From a virus (Duplodnaviria > Caudoviricetes): DNA of 55,526 nt. The stretch is taken from IMG/VR virus record IMGVR_UViG_3300006046_000007, positions 1 through 55,526 of that record. One strand, given 5' to 3'. Both the position numbers and the translations under genes were made by a program. The notes below the pieces were generated by a model. That model was not told the origin of the DNA. It did not search any database and saw nothing but the letters and a program-made list of their open reading frames with translations. Positions within the stretch are counted from its first letter, which is position 1. Every line of letters starts with the position of its first letter. Shown in pieces: positions 17,682 to 36,576 of the stretch.

Positions 17682-18503
17682 TCAGGAGTTAGGGTTGATT
17701 ACCCCATTATCGATAGCCCACACGTAGTCCTTGTAGTGGACGTTTATCACCTGGCTCTTCACCGTCCAACCCGGGAAGTCACCAGTGTACCTAAGCTTCT
17801 TGCGGCTCGGATTGATTGGTTTGGCAACTGAGTTTCCAGTCGAACCACGCACACAAGGCACATGGAACGGATCGGGATTGATCGTCGTGTTGTCATCCCA
17901 CATGTTTCCATTGACTAGGAAGTGGTCAAAGCCGCCAATGCCGACTTGACCGCATCGGAACCGTTGAAGATGGCCAGTTGCATCATTCTGATCAGATGTG
18001 AACCGGAAGTCGAGCCAACGAGGATCATACCAAGTGTGCCGAGTAGTAGAGCTGATCTGACGCCAGCAGTACTTATAGACGATTTCTGTTCGCGTCCTGA
18101 CCTTCACATAGTCAACAGTGATGACTGGACCAAGGATCCGCAATCCGTCAGGGACGAGCCCGTAATCGATTGCGACCTCACCCTCCCACTTGCAGTTGGT
18201 GGCAAGCTTAGTGATGTCCCACGGGTCGGTGTCGTCAGAGGTAATGGCCGCAACTGTGTCATCACCAGGGTAAAGACCTGCCTGAGCTGCGGTCGGCGCG
18301 TCTTCGAGGATAGTTGAAGTCCAAGGCCCGCCTGGTACCTGTGTCTGATCTGACTGGTAAGGATCACCAGCAGGCGTCAGTGGCAAGAAGCAGAAATCAT
18401 CGATGTCTGGGGGACAATCTGTATCTGCATTGGCCGATGGTGCCGACAGCATAGGCAAAGCAACTGCAATAGCCGCTGCGGCAATTATGGTTCTGATATT
18501 CAT
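17682..18503 (-). CDS. Secreted hypothetical protein
   Basis: Signal peptide MNIRTIIAAAAIAVALPMLSAPSANA; several Cys. Confidence 0.65.
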   Translation of the reverse strand: MNIRTIIAAAAIAVALPMLSAPSANADTDCPPDIDDFCFLPLTPAGDPYQSDQTQVPGGPWTSTILEDAPTAAQAGLYPGDDTVAAITSDDTDPWDITKLATNCKWEGEVAIDYGLVPDGLRILGPVITVDYVKVRTRTEIVYKYCWRQISSTTRHTWYDPRWLDFRFTSDQNDATGHLQRFRCGQVGIGGFDHFLVNGNMWDDNTTINPDPFHVPCVRGSTGNSVAKPINPSRKKLRYTGDFPGWTVKSQVINVHYKDYVWAIDNGVINPNS

Positions 18504-18896
18504 TTTACTCCTAGATAGATAAGATAGAGACCTGCAAGCACCAGTGCCCACATGCCAATGTAGATGATGGCAATGACGACAACGTTCTTAACGGTTGTCA
18601 ACCTAACCATTATGCCACCCCATTCAGAATTTGATATGCCTTGAAAACCAGTCGAGAAGCCATTTCAACCATCGAGACTCTACTCCCATAACCCCTCATC
18701 CGAGAAGAGCTATCATGTACTGAAGCCAGGTGCTGTGGTCTTCAGTAACGTGGTTTTGACTCGGATAATGACTGTGCCTTTCGGGCCGGCATAGTGTGCA
18801 ATTGGGACTAATGGGTCCTGGTTTAAGGTCTCTAGACCTATCGGCCCTATCGCAGATATCAGACATGTGTTTGATCCTCCTTTAGAGATGGGTAGA

Positions 18897-18929
18897 GGGC
18901 AGTTTTTTAAAGCAGGCATGCCCAGGCCT
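18897..18929 (-). ncRNA. Small H-type pseudoknot, copy A
   Basis: AGGC-CUGGGCAU-GCCU-GCUUUAAAAAAC-UGCCC; S1 AGGC/GCCU, S2 GGGCA/UGCCC. Confidence 0.65.
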
Positions 18930-19155
18930 CCACGGTGTCCCCGCTGTTTAATGTTACGGTAGGCTAGGAAGAATTCCTTGCAGGGAGCGCTTCCCGCTTC
19001 GGTCGGCTGCAACCGCCTTATCAAAGCTGACCTACCGGCGTTTTTTAACTACCTAACAATCCGCTGTACGTCGCTTCCTCCACCACGCGAACCTATGGCT
19101 CAGATGGTTTCACCAGTCGCTACGGAATGCCGTTCGGTCTACACCTGACCGCTCA
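18897..19155 (-). ncRNA. Structured RNA unit A (pistol-1 3' product)
   Basis: From the predicted cleavage site to pseudoknot A; stems CGGUAGG/CCUACCG and UUGCAG/CUGCAA. Confidence 0.5.
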
Positions 19156-19285
19156 CCCATTGGACGCCGGAAATGAGATCCCGTTCCGGTCTTTTACATC
19201 TGAGCTTCAGGAGAAGGAGATAACCCGCAGCTAGAGTCCAATGACGCACTAGGCCTAAGAGCTATTTATACTCGCCTAGTCGAGT
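19151..19285 (-). ncRNA. Pistol self-cleaving ribozyme 1
   Basis: ACUCG-ACUAGG-CGAGU-AUAAAUAG-CUC-UUAGG-CCUAGU-GCG-UCAUUGGAC[insert]GUCCAAUGG-GU-GAGC: P1, 6-bp pseudoknot, UAAAUAG, P2, GCG, P3 and GU site all present. Confidence 0.9.
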
Positions 19286-19686
19286 TACTCGTCTCTGCCG
19301 AAGGCCGAGTCGCGAGCCTTACGGAGGAGACGGATGGTTCGGTTGATGGCGCTCCGGTTGAACCAGGTCCAAAGACCATCAACGCCGGCCGTTGAGCCGG
19401 TGACTGCGTCCAAGCAGGCACGACCAAGTTTGTTCATGTACTCTGCTGCTGCGTCATCATCAACAGAGTCCTCAGGAACAAAGCCGAAGTCTTCTCGAAG
19501 TAGCTTGAAAAGGATTCTCCCGATCTCAGTCTGAGTAGTAGTCCCACCATAGACCTGATCGATGAAATGCAGTGTGGGTTGGTCGATACGAGATTCAAGA
19601 CCAACTCCAACAGAAGCCAGACCAGGATTCCACTGGACCAAGAGGTCGTAGGAGGCCTGATCTTCTGGGGTGATTCTTTCTTTCAT
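19285..19686 (-). CDS. Hypothetical protein
   Basis: 133 aa, AAAGG RBS; its stop codon abuts pistol 1. Confidence 0.75.
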   Translation of the reverse strand: MKERITPEDQASYDLLVQWNPGLASVGVGLESRIDQPTLHFIDQVYGGTTTQTEIGRILFKLLREDFGFVPEDSVDDDAAAEYMNKLGRACLDAVTGSTAGVDGLWTWFNRSAINRTIRLLRKARDSAFGRDE

Positions 19687-19850
19687 GGTGTTACCTTTCT
19701 TTTCGTTGGCTCCCGCTTATCGGGAGTAGATTGTCCTTGTTGTAGCCAGGCCCAGGACCTTCCCACAGGTTTAACATTTATCACCTGCGACCATGCGAGT
19801 ATTAGCGTCTCAAATGCTTCGACATTCTCGGGTTCATGATCGGCGATGTA

Positions 19851-20114
19851 TTATGAGAGATTTTGTCCCACGATCTGGTCGAACTGCCAGTTCGTAAGAA
19901 ACTTCTGGATCTCGGGGTCCAGCATGAGCTCTGGTCGATCGCGCTCCACGACATCAGTCATAAGACGACCGAACTCGATGAGTTGCAAGTTGCTCTCAAC
20001 CAATATCCGATTAGCCTTACGAAGCTTTGAAGTGATCTGCCACCAACCAATTTGGTTAGCGAGAAAGGCGATCTTAATTAGGGCGATTCGTGTTGCCGGG
20101 TCCATCTTCTTCAT
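19851..20114 (-). CDS. Hypothetical protein
   Basis: 87 aa ORF with AAGGAG RBS. Confidence 0.65.
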   Translation of the reverse strand: MKKMDPATRIALIKIAFLANQIGWWQITSKLRKANRILVESNLQLIEFGRLMTDVVERDRPELMLDPEIQKFLTNWQFDQIVGQNLS

Positions 20115-20152
20115 CGATAACTCCTTAGATAGGGGATGATGGGATGTGTTTG

Positions 20153-20305
20153 CTAACGATTGAGGACCACCAGAAAGAAGTATAGGGCTAGGAAGAACAG
20201 CCCGAAAGCAAGGAAGTCAATCTTCTTCTTTGCGAATTCGAAAATGAACCCTAGCGCAAACGCGAACACGGAAAGGAGCAAAATGATGAAGTAGAACGTA
20301 TGCAT
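20153..20305 (-). CDS. Small two-TM membrane protein (MHTFYFIILL...)
   Basis: 50 aa, AGGAGG RBS, two hydrophobic helices. Confidence 0.7.
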   Translation of the reverse strand: MHTFYFIILLLSVFAFALGFIFEFAKKKIDFLAFGLFFLALYFFLVVLNR

Positions 20306-20487
20306 GATGCCTCCTATGTTTGAATGGAGAGGAGGACAAGACCCACGAAAATCCCATCCCCCTCTCCTACTGTAGGTAGCGTTTTCAATTGACTTTAATC
20401 ACTTCGACTCATCGCACTTCGATCCGGCCAAAGGTGTTGCCCAAACCTCACGATTTCACCAATGAACTACGCTACAGTGACTTGAGG

Positions 20488-20514
20488 GGGCCTTTTTGCC
20501 GCATGCCCAGGCGG
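20488..20514 (-). ncRNA. Small H-type pseudoknot, copy B
   Basis: CCGC-CUGGGCAU-GCGG-CAAAAAG-GCCC. Confidence 0.65.
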
Positions 20515-20683
20515 GATCTTTAATCGGTAAGGTGCCCGGGTCTCCGCCCAGTGGTCTGCAACCTTTCTGCTTCGTCACCCTTGCAGAGGGTGCTTATTGA
20601 CGCAAGAACACGCCTTTTATGTACCTTACCTACGGCTAAGGGAGTGACTGGTTAGCAACGCCAATTCACTTGCCGATTTCCCA
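20488..20683 (-). ncRNA. Structured RNA unit B (pistol-2 3' product)
   Basis: Stems GGUAAGGU/ACCUUACC and UCUGCAA/UUGCAGA; ends in pseudoknot B. Confidence 0.5.
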
Positions 20684-20814
20684 CGACGCGGCTGGTAGTT
20701 GTCCATGTCGGTGAAAACACCTGTCGACTACCAATTACTTCCAAGCTCAAGGCCTGTAACTTGGAACCGCGCCCGCTCTGAGCCTAAGGTCTATTTAACC
20801 TCGCTCAGACGAGG
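20680..20814 (-). ncRNA. Pistol self-cleaving ribozyme 2
   Basis: CCUCG-UCUGAG-CGAGG-UUAAAUAG-ACC-UUAGG-CUCAGA-GCG-GGCGCGGUU[insert]AGCCGCGUC-GU-GGG; core intact, P2 weak (two C-G pairs plus A.G). Confidence 0.8.
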
Positions 20815-20853
20815 GAGTAGTTTAGTGTGGATCGAGGTCATGCTCAGGACCCC
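20815..20853 (-). ncRNA. Small H-type pseudoknot, copy C
   Basis: GGGGUC-CUGAGCAU-GACCUC...UAAAC-UACUC; abuts pistol 2. Confidence 0.55.
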
Positions 20854-20959
20854 GCAATGAGGCATTCAGTTGAACATCTATAGTGGGCGTTACCCACCAT
20901 CCGTCATCGAACTCACCTCCATCTAAATATGCACGCTCTTTCGAGCCTGACTATAGTAG

Positions 20960-21039
20960 CTCGCACGACGGGATTCGAACCCGCATACGCCGCCCTGGAT
21001 GTCCAGGCCCGAACGCTTTACCAATTAAGTTACATGCGA
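20960..21039 (-). tRNA. tRNA-like element with extended, non-canonical anticodon arm
   Basis: Acceptor UCGCAUG/CGUGCGA, D arm ACUU-AAUUGGUA-AAGC, T arm GCGGG-UUCGAAU-CCCGU; anticodon/variable region 29 nt instead of ~22, with CCUGG-ACAU-CCAGG hairpin; 3' end G-CUA, not CCA. Confidence 0.7.
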
Positions 21040-21086
21040 TGCCTCCCTAACCGTCACACTCGGGGGAACGCAGACGGCTAGAAACT

Positions 21087-21188
21087 CTAGTACCTTCGCT
21101 TCTTTGACGGATTCGTGTTGAAGACCCACGAATAGATCAAGCAGAAGAGAAGAATGGCGAAGACCACACCAATAACAAGTCGGACCAT
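21087..21188 (-). CDS. Small membrane peptide (MVRLVIGVVF...)
   Basis: 33 aa, AAGGAG RBS, one TM helix. Confidence 0.55.
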   Translation of the reverse strand: MVRLVIGVVFAILLFCLIYSWVFNTNPSKKRRY

Positions 21189-21595
21189 AATAACTCCTTT
21201 TATGTGATAGTTAGATCTTGACTACGTTGCGAAACAAAGAACTCTCATCGTGTGAGGTGAAGACGTACATCTCGAAAAAGACCATTGGTACGAAGAACTG
21301 GCAGTCCAAAGGCGAGCCCTCGTCACGTAGGAACCAGCCTTCTTCGTGCTCCTCAAGCCACTGTAAGGCCATCTCTAAGTCAAAATCTCGTCCTGCCTCG
21401 CTCCGAATCACACCTCGAAGATTCTCTGGTGTAATCTTGATTGCGTAAGCTTGCACAGGACGGCCTCTCACTTAGATGTGATCCACTGAATAAGCTCGAC
21501 AAACCCCCACCCGAACAAGAAAACGATTGCTAGAATGATGAAAACAATCACCCAAACAACGCCCCAGGCGAACTGATTGGTCTTTTTCTCATCCA

Positions 21596-22072
21596 TCAGA
21601 TCTCCTCGTAGTCAGCATACTTGGCCGCGAAACGGGATTCCTTGACCTTGGCATAGAGTTCTTTGACGTATGCCGTGATCCCAGAGTTCTGTCCATTCAC
21701 CCAACGAGATGGAGTGATGATAACATCGAGTTGCTCAAGAGTGTCTCGACGAATATCAGCTAGGTCACGTTCTGTTGCACGAAGCTTTCGCTCTCCCTTA
21801 AGAAGGTAGATCTTAGGCGGTTCGAACTTGTAAGAGATCTTGATCTTTAGCAGGTGCTCGTCAGGATCGCCTTCCTCATACCCAGGCATATCTCGTACTG
21901 CCCAGCCATCAGCGCGCATCTTGTCTGCAATCTCCTCAGATAGCATGGCAGTGAAGTTATGAGCACCTTCTGCGTTGAACGTGTCTTCCCGTCCATCGAA
22001 ATGCGAGAATGCCCACTTGACCTTGACGTCTTCAAGCTCGACATCGTTGACCCAATTACGATCTTCAGGCAT
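21596..22072 (-). CDS. Putative single-stranded DNA-binding protein
   Basis: F-x-G-RE..FN.EG..NF and ITAYVKELY patterns, acidic C-tail, located in the replication region. Confidence 0.6.
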   Translation of the reverse strand: MPEDRNWVNDVELEDVKVKWAFSHFDGREDTFNAEGAHNFTAMLSEEIADKMRADGWAVRDMPGYEEGDPDEHLLKIKISYKFEPPKIYLLKGERKLRATERDLADIRRDTLEQLDVIITPSRWVNGQNSGITAYVKELYAKVKESRFAAKYADYEEI

Positions 22073-26327: not shown

Positions 26328-26392
26328 AATGTCTCCTCTTAGAGAAAGAAAAGAAGAGTTGTCCGGGGAGGACTGGATCACTTATGGATCCC

Positions 26393-33449: not shown

Positions 33450-33509
33450 GCGAGTTCCTTTCAGAGAGAAAAAGAAAGCCCTGGTGCACAGGGCCCTCTC
33501 TTTGGTTGA

Positions 33510-36245: not shown

Positions 36246-36576
36246 GATAGTTCCTTTCGGATAGTCAGAGAAAAAGAAAGAAGCGTTGCTGGCGGGCAAC
36301 GACTAGACTACTAGCTTCTTCTGTCATATAGGGCATTGTTTTTACCGCGAATTCAGCGGGTCAAATGTACTGCTCTTCTCCCGAAACTCTTTAATGCTCT
36401 CGAATATAGATGCCTCTTTGGGTGTCCAGAACTCGTCTGAGCAACCGGCTTTCTTGTATCGTTTCTGTTGAGCAGTTTCGAGATCCCATGCAATTAACTC
36501 ATGAAAGTCCATCTCTTCGTCCACGATAAATCCTTTCGGAGAAAAACCTAAACCCATTGCGGGCTTAGGTGAACTA

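What the first reader, a model, noticed from the sequence alone, without database searches (positions are those of the whole stretch)
19151..19285. Pistol ribozyme 1 with a large P3 insertion exposing an anti-Shine-Dalgarno-like sequence
Seen: all pistol core elements match the established consensus, and the ribozyme begins at the upstream gene's stop codon. Predicted cut is between 19156 (G) and 19155 (U). P3 (UCAUUGGAC/GUCCAAUGG) encloses ~70 nt forming two hairpins; one carries UUAUCUCCUUCUCCU, complementary to the AAGGAG(A) RBS used across this genome. Inference: the 5' product may pair with ribosome-binding sites.
Basis: partly seen in the sequence, partly recalled or inferred. Interest (0 to 1): 0.75.

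Follow-up and report, generated by a model that had tools for sequence, protein, structure and literature searches.

The report
Phage pistol ribozyme with branched P3
A real self-cutting "pistol" RNA in a soil phage carries an unusually large two-hairpin insertion, but its ribosome-site-like loop is not kept in related phages, and the ribozyme more likely trims the front end of a conserved folded RNA that follows it.

Summary
A pistol ribozyme lies on the minus strand at 19285-19151, starting on the last base of the upstream gene's TAA. It has a 9-bp P3 enclosing 70 nt, a G19156|U19155 junction and a perfect 4-bp P2. Rfam scores it 45 bits (cut-off 34.5) but ends it at 19219, with a 2-bp P3 and a mismatched P2. 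In two homologous phage pistols (L104, L237), 15 pairs changed on both sides (0 of 500 shuffles).

The insertion is P3, hairpin A, an invariant UGUAAAAGAC linker, then hairpin B. CUCCUU sits unpaired in hairpin A's predicted 12-nt loop.

The anti-Shine-Dalgarno reading is not supported:
- The same loop reads AGGGGAAG and UGGGGAAG in the two homologues.
- None of 12 other long-P3 pistols carries CUCCU.
- CTCCTT occurs 13 times on the transcribed strand, against 13.6 expected.

The cut lies at the first base of a conserved structured RNA that matches no Rfam family. I found it in 9 phage contigs. All 8 that can be judged have a pistol in front, though most were found through their pistols. 5'-end trimming is therefore the likelier role.

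This scan has noted pistols heading uncatalogued RNAs in other genomes before (e1-5826038, e1-5826049, e1-5885464). This is a new variant of a known kind. Cleavage itself is untested.

The parts
19151..19285 (-). Pistol ribozyme 1, full length (135 nt), including the P3 insertion
   Evidence: Rfam RF02679 scores 45.0 bits for 19285-19219. The extended 3' half comes from reading the sequence and from the scripts. Covariation with L104 and L237 supports it.
19270..19285 (-). P1 hairpin (ACUCG / CGAGU). Its loop ACUAGG (19280-19275) forms the 6-bp pseudoknot with CCUAGU (19253-19248).
   Evidence: P1 has 2 pairs and the pseudoknot 3 pairs changed on both sides among three homologues.
19245..19269 (-). 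Catalytic core: AUAAAUA linker (19269-19263), P2 5' strand GCUC (19262-19259), UUAGG, pseudoknot 3' strand, and GCG (19247-19245)
   Evidence: It matches the upper-case consensus of the Rfam alignment. The roles of the purine-32, G33, G40, C41 and G42 equivalents are taken from the review PMC6154101 (passages).
19236..19244 (-). P3 5' strand UCAUUGGAC, pairing with GUCCAAUGG at 19165-19157 (9 bp)
   Evidence: 4 of 9 pairs changed on both sides in L104 and L237, and 96% of cells are paired.
19199..19235 (-). Hairpin A of the P3 insertion. Apical loop UUAUCUCCUUCU at 19223-19212, with CUCCUU at 19219-19214.
   Evidence: Constrained fold. The outer stem has 4 pairs changed on both sides. The loop is not conserved: AGGGGAAG in L104 and UGGGGAAG in L237.
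19189..19198 (-). UGUAAAAGAC junction linker between hairpins A and B
   Evidence: It is invariant in the window, L104 and L237.
19167..19189 (-). Hairpin B of the P3 insertion (CCGGAA / UUCCGG)
   Evidence: Constrained fold. The closing pairs are kept in L104 and L237, with 2 changed on both sides.
19155..19156 (-). Predicted cleavage site, between G19156 and U19155
   Evidence: This is the 2-nt junction between P3 and P2. The site rule comes from Harris 2015, PMC4604425, section 5. Cleavage was not assayed.
19151..19154 (-). P2 3' strand GAGC. These are also bases 2-5 of the downstream conserved RNA.
   Evidence: UGAGCGG is invariant in the 9 members.
19285..19686 (-). Upstream gene (133 aa, function unknown). 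Its TAA at 19287-19285 overlaps the first ribozyme base.
   Evidence: Homologues at 51% identity and 47% (L018). PHROG 10659 matches its C-terminus.
18957..19155 (-). Conserved structured RNA that starts at the cut.
- Hairpin H1: 19150-19136.
- Motif AGUUAAAAAAC: 19050-19040.
- Long-range helix H3: 19037-19030 with 18964-18957.
- Inner helix A: 19012-19007 with 18983-18978.
   Evidence: Model R1 finds L157 (49.8 bits) and L114 (37.9 bits), which were not in its training set. 12 of 15 pairs changed on both sides. No Rfam family matches at E up to 1.
18696..18883 (-). Next gene: RBS AAAGGAGGA (18883-18875) and a 56-aa ORF (ATG at 18866)
20679..20814 (-). Pistol ribozyme 2, with the same architecture: 9-bp P3, 71-nt two-hairpin insertion, GU junction, weak P2 (2 of 4 pairs)
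   Evidence: Rfam 46.9 bits for 20814-20765. Extended 3' half. 56 of 5000 shuffles reach its score.

Best explanation
The stretch 19285-19151 (minus strand) is a pistol self-cleaving ribozyme. Its P3 stem has been expanded into a three-way junction: a 9-bp P3, hairpin A, the linker UGUAAAAGAC, and hairpin B.

It is transcribed with the upstream 133-aa gene and begins on the last base of that gene's stop codon. It should cut between G19156 and U19155.

- The 5' product is the upstream mRNA. It ends in the folded ribozyme and, by the known pistol chemistry, carries a 2',3'-cyclic phosphate.
- The 3' product has a 5'-OH. Its first base is also the first base of a conserved, structured RNA of about 200 nt that matches no Rfam family and leads into the next gene.

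The most likely job is therefore to separate the two RNAs and give the downstream RNA a defined 5' end. The P3 insertion is a conserved peripheral domain of this pistol subgroup, perhaps a folding aid or a protein or RNA docking platform. Its stems and linker are constrained; the apical loop of hairpin A is free to vary. The anti-SD-like loop of this phage is then most likely incidental.

Shown here: the sequence features, the Rfam match, the covariation, and the conservation of the downstream RNA.

Inferred: cleavage itself, co-transcription, the end chemistry, and the role of the insertion.
For: - Rfam Pistol scores 45.0 bits against a cut-off of 34.5.
- All core features are present (residue roles from PMC6154101).
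- The long 3' half is rare by chance: 9/5000 and 4/20000.
- On the alignment with L104 and L237, 94.5% of cells pair, against 81.4% in shuffles and 28-40% when partners are slid. 15 pairs changed on both sides; 0 of 500 shuffles reach this.
- Pistol 2 of the same phage has the same plan, with a 71-nt insertion.
- In a sample of 85 distinct pistols, 15 have inserts of 26-71 nt. Long P3 forms therefore recur.
- The downstream RNA is found in 9 contigs: window, L018, L070, L091, L104, L114, L157, L237, L241. In all of them UGAGCGG is the start of hairpin H1.
- H1 covaries: GGUC/GACC, GGUG/CACC, GGAG/CUCC.
- Model R1 finds the non-training members L157 (E 1.4e-8) and L114 (E 7.6e-6).
- H3 and helix A: 86.7% of cells paired against 65.5% in shuffles, with 12 of 15 pairs changed on both sides; 0 of 500 shuffles.
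- L157 was found with a pattern that contains no pistol sequence. It nevertheless has a divergent pistol, with a P3 insertion of about 66 nt, directly in front.
- 27 of 85 pistols start within 12 nt of the stop of an ORF of at least 60 codons, against 84 of 1700 random positions.
- No promoter-like site was found in 18400-21700, and no terminator-like site lies between the gene's stop codon and the RBS at 18883.
Against: - No cleavage data exist.
- Only 2 homologues of this particular insertion were found, so the covariation rests on 3 sequences.
- Six of the 9 members of the downstream RNA came from pistol-based searches. For those, 'always behind a pistol' is partly circular.
- The H1 pattern used contains the P2 3' strand.
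- The proposed pseudoknot inside the downstream RNA is not significant: shuffles reach the observed helix in 7-53% of trials per sequence.
- The function of the downstream RNA is unknown.
- Unit B, behind pistol 2, is not matched by model R1 at E up to 1.
- A predicted alternative fold of the bare 135 nt is lower in energy (-43.3 against -36.9 kcal/mol). The pseudoknot is not counted in the second figure.
- The host is unknown.
Confidence: 0.6

Rival explanations
1. After cleavage the 5' product displays the CUCCUU loop like the 3' end of 16S rRNA. It pairs in trans with AAGGAG ribosome-binding sites of phage or host messages and changes their translation.
For: - CUCCUU lies in a predicted unpaired 12-nt loop.
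- AAGGAG occurs 46 times on the transcribed strand, and in front of 27 of 77 ORFs.
- The duplex with an RBS is about -8.7 kcal/mol.
Against: - The loop is AGGGGAAG or UGGGGAAG in the 2 homologous insertions.
- 0 of 12 other long-P3 pistols carry the motif.
- The hexamer is at chance frequency on this strand: 13 against 13.6 expected.
- A 6-bp match would have to compete with ribosomes at dozens of sites.
- If pistol 2 also cuts, the 5' product is a message of about 1.5 kb (20683-19156), not a small abundant RNA (inference).
- No contig from the RNA libraries covers 19143-19285. This is only a weak observation.
Confidence: 0.07
2. A switch acting in cis. In the uncut transcript the CU-rich loop pairs with the RBS of the next gene (AAAGGAGGA, 18883-18875) or with the purine-rich tract GGUGGAGGAAG (about 19087-19076) in the downstream RNA. 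Cleavage or refolding releases it, which couples ribozyme action to translation or to folding of the downstream RNA.
For: Among the best local duplexes of the loop are the RBS at +268 from the cut (-8.7 kcal/mol) and the tract at +67 (-8.2 kcal/mol). This window's variable region between H1 and the A-rich motif is longer than in the other members, and it holds the purine tract.
Against: - The best partners of the L104 and L237 loops lie at unrelated positions (+144, +302), so there is no covariation for such a contact.
- The RBS lies about 330 nt from the loop, across several stable helices.
- Energies of this size are found for many 14-mers in any sequence.
Confidence: 0.1
3. The Rfam boundaries are right. 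The ribozyme is the 67-nt stretch 19285-19219 with a short P3, and the complementarity further downstream is chance.
For: This is the alignment that cmscan reports, at 45 bits.
Against: - That alignment has a 2-bp P3 and 2 of 4 P2 pairs non-standard.
- On my composite scale it scores 6, below the usual best score of shuffled sequence, which is 8.
- The long version has P3 covariation in homologues.
- Rfam gives equally truncated local alignments, some without a GU junction, for other long-P3 pistols: L016, L009, L017, L015, L018.
Confidence: 0.02
4. The element is an inactive or very slow relic. It matters only as a stable 3' structure or as a spacer.
For: - Activity is untested.
- A large insertion and a competing fold could slow folding.
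- Pistol 2 has a weak P2.
- A related strain carries the same upstream gene without this pistol.
Against: All conserved core positions are intact. P1, the pseudoknot, P3 and the insertion stems keep pairing through compensatory changes across three phages, which argues for selection on the fold.
Confidence: 0.08

Closest known systems
Pistol self-cleaving ribozyme class (Rfam RF02679; Harris et al. 2015, PMC4604425, section 5 read; review PMC6154101, passages read; Weinberg et al. 2015 only as cited in these)
   Same: It has P1, the 6-bp pseudoknot between the P1 loop and the P2-P3 junction, the A-rich linker, the UUAGG...GCG core, P3, the 2-nt GU junction and P2. It is also linked to phage genes, as the class is known to be.
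   Different: P3 is not a simple hairpin. It is a three-way junction with a 70-nt insertion, for a total of 135 nt against a 68-position Rfam model. The Rfam model misplaces the 3' end and the cut site of this and similar variants, and it misses L157 altogether at E up to 1. I found no description of such P3 insertions in the papers searched. Supplements were closed, and the original discovery paper was not read.
Long-P3 pistols in uncultured phage contigs found here (L104, L237; also L157, L016, L116, L091, L089, L018, L070, L064 and pistol 2 of this window)
   Same: L104 and L237 share the whole plan: P3, hairpin A with a one-base bulge, UGUAAAAGAC, hairpin B, then GU-GAGC and the same downstream RNA. 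The others share a long, often branched P3.
   Different: Hairpin A's loop is CU-rich only in this window. The insert sequences of the other long-P3 pistols are unrelated.
Theta (HDV-like) ribozymes next to phage tRNAs (PMC10879173; only the search listing and the start of the abstract were seen)
   Same: A small self-cleaving ribozyme in a phage, placed so that its cut defines an end of a neighbouring structured RNA.
   Different: It is a different ribozyme class, and the partner there is a tRNA. Here the partner is an unclassified RNA at the 3' side of the cut. In L018 and L114 that RNA is itself followed by tRNAs.
Anti-SD sequestering elements and the 16S rRNA 3' end (general knowledge, recalled)
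   Same: A CUCCUU stretch complementary to AAGGAG, predicted to be single-stranded.
   Different: It is not conserved, has no defined partner, and lies in a ribozyme's peripheral hairpin rather than next to an RBS.

Membership tests
Pistol ribozyme (RF02679) | Score above the family's curated gathering threshold | tested here: met
   45.0 bits against 34.5. The alignment is local, with the 3' half misplaced.
Pistol ribozyme (RF02679) | P1 hairpin whose loop forms a 6-bp pseudoknot with the junction between the left strands of P2 and P3 | tested here: met
   ACUCG/CGAGU, and ACUAGG with CCUAGU. 2 and 3 pairs changed on both sides in the homologues.
Pistol ribozyme (RF02679) | Conserved core nucleotides: the A-rich linker, the purine-G before the pseudoknot strand, and the GCG after it | tested here: met
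   AUAAAUA, UUAGG and GCG match the upper-case Rfam consensus. The role of these positions comes from PMC6154101.
Pistol ribozyme (RF02679) | P3 helix followed by a junction of exactly 2 nt (usually GU), then the P2 3' strand | tested here: met
   A 9-bp P3, G19156-U19155, and GAGC pairing 4 of 4 with GCUC. The strict criterion is met in 4 of 20000 shuffles. The junction rule is from PMC4604425.
Pistol ribozyme (RF02679) | P3 is a simple hairpin of modest size (as in the Rfam model: 8 pairs and a 5-nt loop) | tested here: not met
   There is a 70-nt two-hairpin insertion. In my sample, 55 of 85 pistols have loops of 17 nt or less. I treat this as a variable peripheral feature, not as a defining one.
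Pistol ribozyme (RF02679) | Mg-dependent self-cleavage at the GU junction | not testable with these tools
   No assay was possible. RNA-library contigs end 13 and 22 nt downstream of the predicted cut. That is not evidence of an RNA end.
Trans- or cis-acting anti-Shine-Dalgarno element | Complementarity to the RBS consensus in a single-stranded region | tested here: met
   CUCCUU in a predicted loop, with unpaired probability about 1. This is a prediction only.
Trans- or cis-acting anti-Shine-Dalgarno element | Conservation of the anti-SD stretch in homologous elements | tested here: not met
   AGGGGAAG and UGGGGAAG in L104 and L237. 0 of 12 other long-P3 pistols have the motif.
Trans- or cis-acting anti-Shine-Dalgarno element | Motif enriched beyond chance, or a covarying partner | tested here: not met
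   13 CTCCTT against 13.6 expected. There is no common partner position in the three homologues.
Any Rfam family for the RNA downstream of the cut | A covariance-model match | tested here: not met
   No match at E up to 1 in window 18300-21700, nor in L091, L070, L114, nor in L157, L104, apart from pistol, tRNA and chance-level hits.

The most novel reading that the evidence does not exclude
The pistol with its branched P3 and the conserved RNA that begins at the cut form one two-part device of soil phages. The constant scaffold (P3, hairpin A stem, UGUAAAAGAC, hairpin B) presents a variable 'address' loop. In this phage the loop is CU-rich and reads purine-rich sites such as ribosome-binding sites, or the GGAGGAAG tract of its own 3' product. 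The ribozyme would then both release and regulate the downstream RNA or the translation of neighbouring genes.
Probability: 0.1. Interest if true: 0.8.

Novelty: new variant of a known kind. Interest (0 to 1): 0.45.

Why it matters
The biological role of pistol ribozymes is still open. This case gives a concrete, testable setting: the ribozyme starts on a stop codon and cuts exactly at the first base of a conserved folded RNA.

It also shows a branched-P3 subgroup, supported by covariation, for which the public Rfam model gives the wrong 3' end and cut site. One member (L157) is missed outright. Automatic annotation therefore under-reports and mis-maps such ribozymes.

The attractive anti-SD idea can be set aside, unless experiments say otherwise.

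Tried and rejected
Searches for close relatives that led nowhere:
- Protein-pattern scan of IMG/VR with the upstream protein: 8 stretches, 0 relatives.
- Exact 40-nt 5'-half pattern: 0 hits.
- 3'-end pattern CCAATGG..GTGAGCGGT: 28 hits, 0 with a pistol core.
- Insertion pattern: 13 stretches, of which only L104 and L237 are real and 11 are chance matches in coding sequence.

Phage GenBank search (blastn): only 43-47-nt matches to the pistol 5' halves in Cellulosimicrobium phage DS1 and four Gordonia phage records. These have ordinary short or medium P3 stems.

'Drum' RNA: I recalled it as linked to ribozymes. The paper (PMC5737381, passages) does not say so, and Rfam gave no hit, so I dropped it.

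Pseudoknot B in the downstream RNA: RNAalifold prefers it, but shuffles reach the observed helix often (146 to 1067 of 2000 per sequence). It stays tentative.

Column-wise counting of helix A on the MAFFT alignment A6 failed because of register shifts. I counted on the model-fitted alignment A8 instead, which leans towards the model.

Reads: all four runs are contigs.
- RNA-library contigs cover 18941-19133 (X9) and 19004-19142 (X10).
- None covers 19143-19285.
- Both RNA runs are from one study, and their ends differ by 9 nt.
- DNA contig X6 spans 19025-19224 and is identical to the window.

This shows neither an RNA end nor the absence of the 5' product, so I do not use it as evidence.

Unit B behind pistol 2 looks related to unit A by eye: GGUAAGGU/ACCUUACC, CUGCAA/UUGCAG, GACGAAGC. 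Model R1 does not find it at E up to 1.

The plain MFE fold of 19290-19140 has z = -0.41. This is uninformative for a pseudoknotted RNA.
Full report
**Setting.** The window is a whole IMG/VR virus record of 55.5 kb, estimated 93% complete. DNA runs that hold this stretch are labelled soil metagenome. Nearly all genes lie on the minus strand: 77 of 92 ORFs with an SD-like start. All features below are on that strand.

**The observation.**
- P1: 19285-19281 with 19274-19270.
- Pseudoknot: P1 loop ACUAGG with CCUAGU at 19253-19248.
- Linker AUAAAUA, then the core UUAGG...GCG.
- P2: GCUC with GAGC at 19154-19151.
- P3: UCAUUGGAC with GUCCAAUGG.
- Two-base junction: G19156, U19155.

The 133-aa ORF upstream ends with TAA at 19287-19285. 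The ribozyme therefore starts on the last base of the stop codon.

Rfam's Pistol model scores the locus at 45.0 bits, against a gathering score of 34.5. It also finds a second pistol at 20814-20765 with 46.9 bits.

**Which 3' half is right.** cmscan ends pistol 1 at 19219. That alignment has a 2-bp P3 and two non-standard P2 pairs.
It scores 15; the next candidate scores 8.
- That score is reached in 9 of 5000 dinucleotide shuffles.
- The strict criterion is reached in 4 of 20000 shuffles.
- Rfam truncates other long-P3 pistols the same way, in several cases without a GU junction: L016, L009, L017, L015, L018.

**Comparative support.** Pattern scans of IMG/VR, a metagenome scan with the upstream protein family and two GenBank phage records gave 85 distinct pistols, counting the window's two. 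The sample is biased by the patterns used.
- 55 have P3 loops of 17 nt or less.
- 3 have loops of 22-23 nt.
- 15 have loops or inserts of 26-71 nt.
- 12 could not be resolved by my simple scan. L104 was one of these; I later read it by eye as a 69-nt insertion.

Two contigs, L104 and L237, carry an insertion homologous to the window's: P3, hairpin A with a one-base bulge, an invariant UGUAAAAGAC, hairpin B, P3, then GU-GAGC.

I wrote the full structure on the three-sequence alignment. 94.5% of cells pair, against 81.4% in shuffles and 28-40% when partners are slid. 15 pairs have changes on both sides: 2 in P1, 3 in the pseudoknot, 4 in P3, 4 in hairpin A and 2 in hairpin B. None of 500 shuffles reaches any of the five measures. 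Three sequences are few, but the signal is clean.

Pistol 2 of this phage has the same plan: a 9-bp P3, a 71-nt insertion with two hairpins, GU, and a weak P2.

**The anti-SD loop.** With the pistol helices constrained, the insertion folds into hairpin A (19235-19199) and hairpin B (19189-19167). UUAUCUCCUUCU (19223-19212) forms the apical loop of A and is unpaired with probability about 1. So the sequence is there and is predicted to be exposed. AAGGAG-type sites are indeed common: 27 of 77 ORFs have AAGGAG, 53 of 77 have AGGAG or GGAGG, and AAGGAG occurs 46 times on the strand.

Four tests speak against a selected function.
1. In L104 and L237 the loop at the same place is AGGGGAAG and UGGGGAAG.
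2. Of 13 long-P3 pistols, only this one has CUCCU, CCUCC or UCCUC in its insertion.
3. CTCCTT occurs 13 times on the transcribed strand against 13.6 expected. The strand has 34 pyrimidine runs of 10 or more bases.
4. The best duplex partners of the three homologous loops lie at unrelated positions.

In this window the partners include the next gene's RBS (-8.7 kcal/mol) and a purine tract at +67 (-8.2 kcal/mol). Energies of this size are unremarkable.

**What lies behind the cut.** The stretch from the cut to the next good gene start (ATG 18866, RBS AAAGGAGGA) is about 290 nt without a convincing ORF. Its first 200 nt are conserved in other phage contigs, always starting at the cut:
- UGAGC;
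- hairpin H1, which covaries as GGUC/GACC, GGUG/CACC and GGAG/CUCC, followed by GAA;
- a variable region;
- the motif UA(A/G)GUAGUUAAAAAAC;
- a long-range helix H3 enclosing AUAAGG, an inner helix A (UUGCAG/CUGCAA and variants) and CGAAG.

The members are the window, L018, L070, L091 (with a near-identical copy in L133/L107), L104, L114, L157, L237 and L241.

A covariance model built from five of them finds L157 (49.8 bits, E 1.4e-8) and L114 (37.9 bits, E 7.6e-6) among 91 sources. L237 and L018 appear only weakly. On the model-fitted alignment of seven, 86.7% of cells pair against 65.5% in shuffles, and 12 of 15 pairs changed on both sides; 0 of 500 shuffles reach this. An inner pseudoknot is possible but not significant. 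No Rfam family matches at E up to 1.

Eight of the nine members have a pistol directly in front. L241 is cut off by its contig end. This is partly circular, because six came from pistol-based searches. L157, however, was found with a pattern that holds no pistol sequence. It still has a divergent pistol, missed by Rfam at E up to 1, with a P3 insertion of about 66 nt.

P3 inserts in this group are 70, 69, about 66, 65, 50, 40, 37 and 12 nt. In L018 and L114 the RNA is followed by tRNAs. It is therefore not simply the leader of one gene.

**Modularity.**
- L018 encodes a 47%-identical homologue of the upstream gene, with no pistol after it. It has a pistol plus the conserved RNA plus a tRNA before it.
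- A contig from one RNA-library run carries the upstream gene (4 differences in 179 nt) and then diverges from the window exactly at the stop codon. A related strain therefore lacks pistol 1 there.
- In the pistol sample, 27 of 85 start within 12 nt of the stop of an ORF of at least 60 codons, against 84 of 1700 random positions. 7 share the exact TAA overlap seen here.

**Mechanism proposed.** The gene, the ribozyme and the downstream RNA are transcribed together. No terminator-like or promoter-like site lies between them. The ribozyme folds once the terminating ribosome has left P1, and cuts at 19156|19155. The upstream message keeps the folded ribozyme as its 3' end. The downstream RNA starts with a 5'-OH at U19155. 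The branched P3 is a conserved peripheral domain of unknown role. All of these steps are inferred. Only the sequence features, the covariation and the conservation are shown.

**Literature.** Harris 2015 (PMC4604425, section 5 and passages) and the review PMC6154101 (passages) describe three stems, the pseudoknot, the GU junction of fixed length and the link to phages. They say nothing of large P3 insertions or of a biological role. Two full-text searches for pistol with phage, and with non-coding RNA terms, listed no paper on pistols that trim a phage RNA. Supplements were closed, and the 2015 discovery paper was not read, so long-P3 members may already be in published alignments.

**Earlier notes of this scan.** Follow-up reports on other genomes describe pistols heading uncatalogued RNAs of 155-200 nt (e1-5826038, e1-5826049, e1-5885464). 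A look-up by sequence found no look-alike of this RNA in other windows, so I cannot say whether they are the same family.

**Verdict.** The structural reading is supported and extended. The anti-SD function is not supported. This is a new variant of a known ribozyme class, in a recurring but still unexplained ribozyme-plus-RNA arrangement.

Noticed in passing
window 20679-20814 (-): Pistol 2 also has a 9-bp P3 (GGCGCGGUU with AGCCGCGUC) around a 71-nt two-hairpin insertion, a GU junction at 20684|20683 and only 2 of 4 P2 pairs. Rfam ends it at 20765 with a 1-bp P3 and no GU.
   Followed up: partly
window 18957-19155 (-); L018, L070, L091, L104, L114, L157, L237, L241: A conserved, covarying structured RNA with no Rfam match starts exactly at the pistol cut in 9 phage contigs. 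In L018 and L114 it is followed by tRNAs. Its function is unknown.
   Followed up: partly
window 20300-20683 (-): The RNA behind pistol 2 looks by eye like a diverged copy of the same core (GGUAAGGU/ACCUUACC, AAUAAGC, CUGCAA/UUGCAG, GACGAAGC). Model R1 does not match it at E up to 1.
   Followed up: partly
window 19285 (junction); run X10: A contig from an RNA library carries the upstream gene (4 differences in 179 nt) and then runs on unlike the window from exactly the stop codon. A related strain therefore lacks pistol 1 at this junction. A second contig diverges at 19004, inside the downstream RNA.
   Followed up: no
85 pistols in loci L001-L116 and the window: Pistols are enriched right behind stop codons. 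27 of 85 start within 12 nt of the stop of an ORF of at least 60 codons, against 84 of 1700 random positions. 7 overlap a TAA by one base, as this one does.
   Followed up: partly
L157:5450-5580 (-): A divergent pistol (P1 CGUCC/GGACG, a shorter A-rich linker, a P3 insertion of about 66 nt) that Rfam does not report even at E up to 1. It was found only through the conserved RNA behind it.
   Followed up: partly
window 20959-21039 (-): ARAGORN calls this tRNA-Ser(GGA). Rfam's tRNA model scores it only 37.3 bits, with 23 nt where the model has 15 in the anticodon-arm region. It lies 145 nt upstream of pistol 2.
   Followed up: no
window, many intergenic regions (e.g. 36267-36283, 33463-33478, 26341-26358): Long pyrimidine runs on the transcribed strand sit shortly before ribosome-binding sites. 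They show that CU-rich tracts are ordinary in this genome.
   Followed up: no
L104 and L237 hairpin A loops; window 19217-19211: The GGGGAAG loop of the two homologues is complementary to CUUCUCC in this window's loop (7 pairs, one of them G-U). This is probably a coincidence, since they are different phages.
   Followed up: no
L001 (Cellulosimicrobium phage DS1, MW590223.1) 605-674: A canonical pistol (66 bits) starts on the TAA of an annotated hypothetical gene and is followed by about 400 nt without annotation. The record does not annotate the ribozyme. Near the next RBS the sequence resembles the window's (CCUGGGCA...AAACUGCCC...CCCAU...AAAGGAGG).
   Followed up: no
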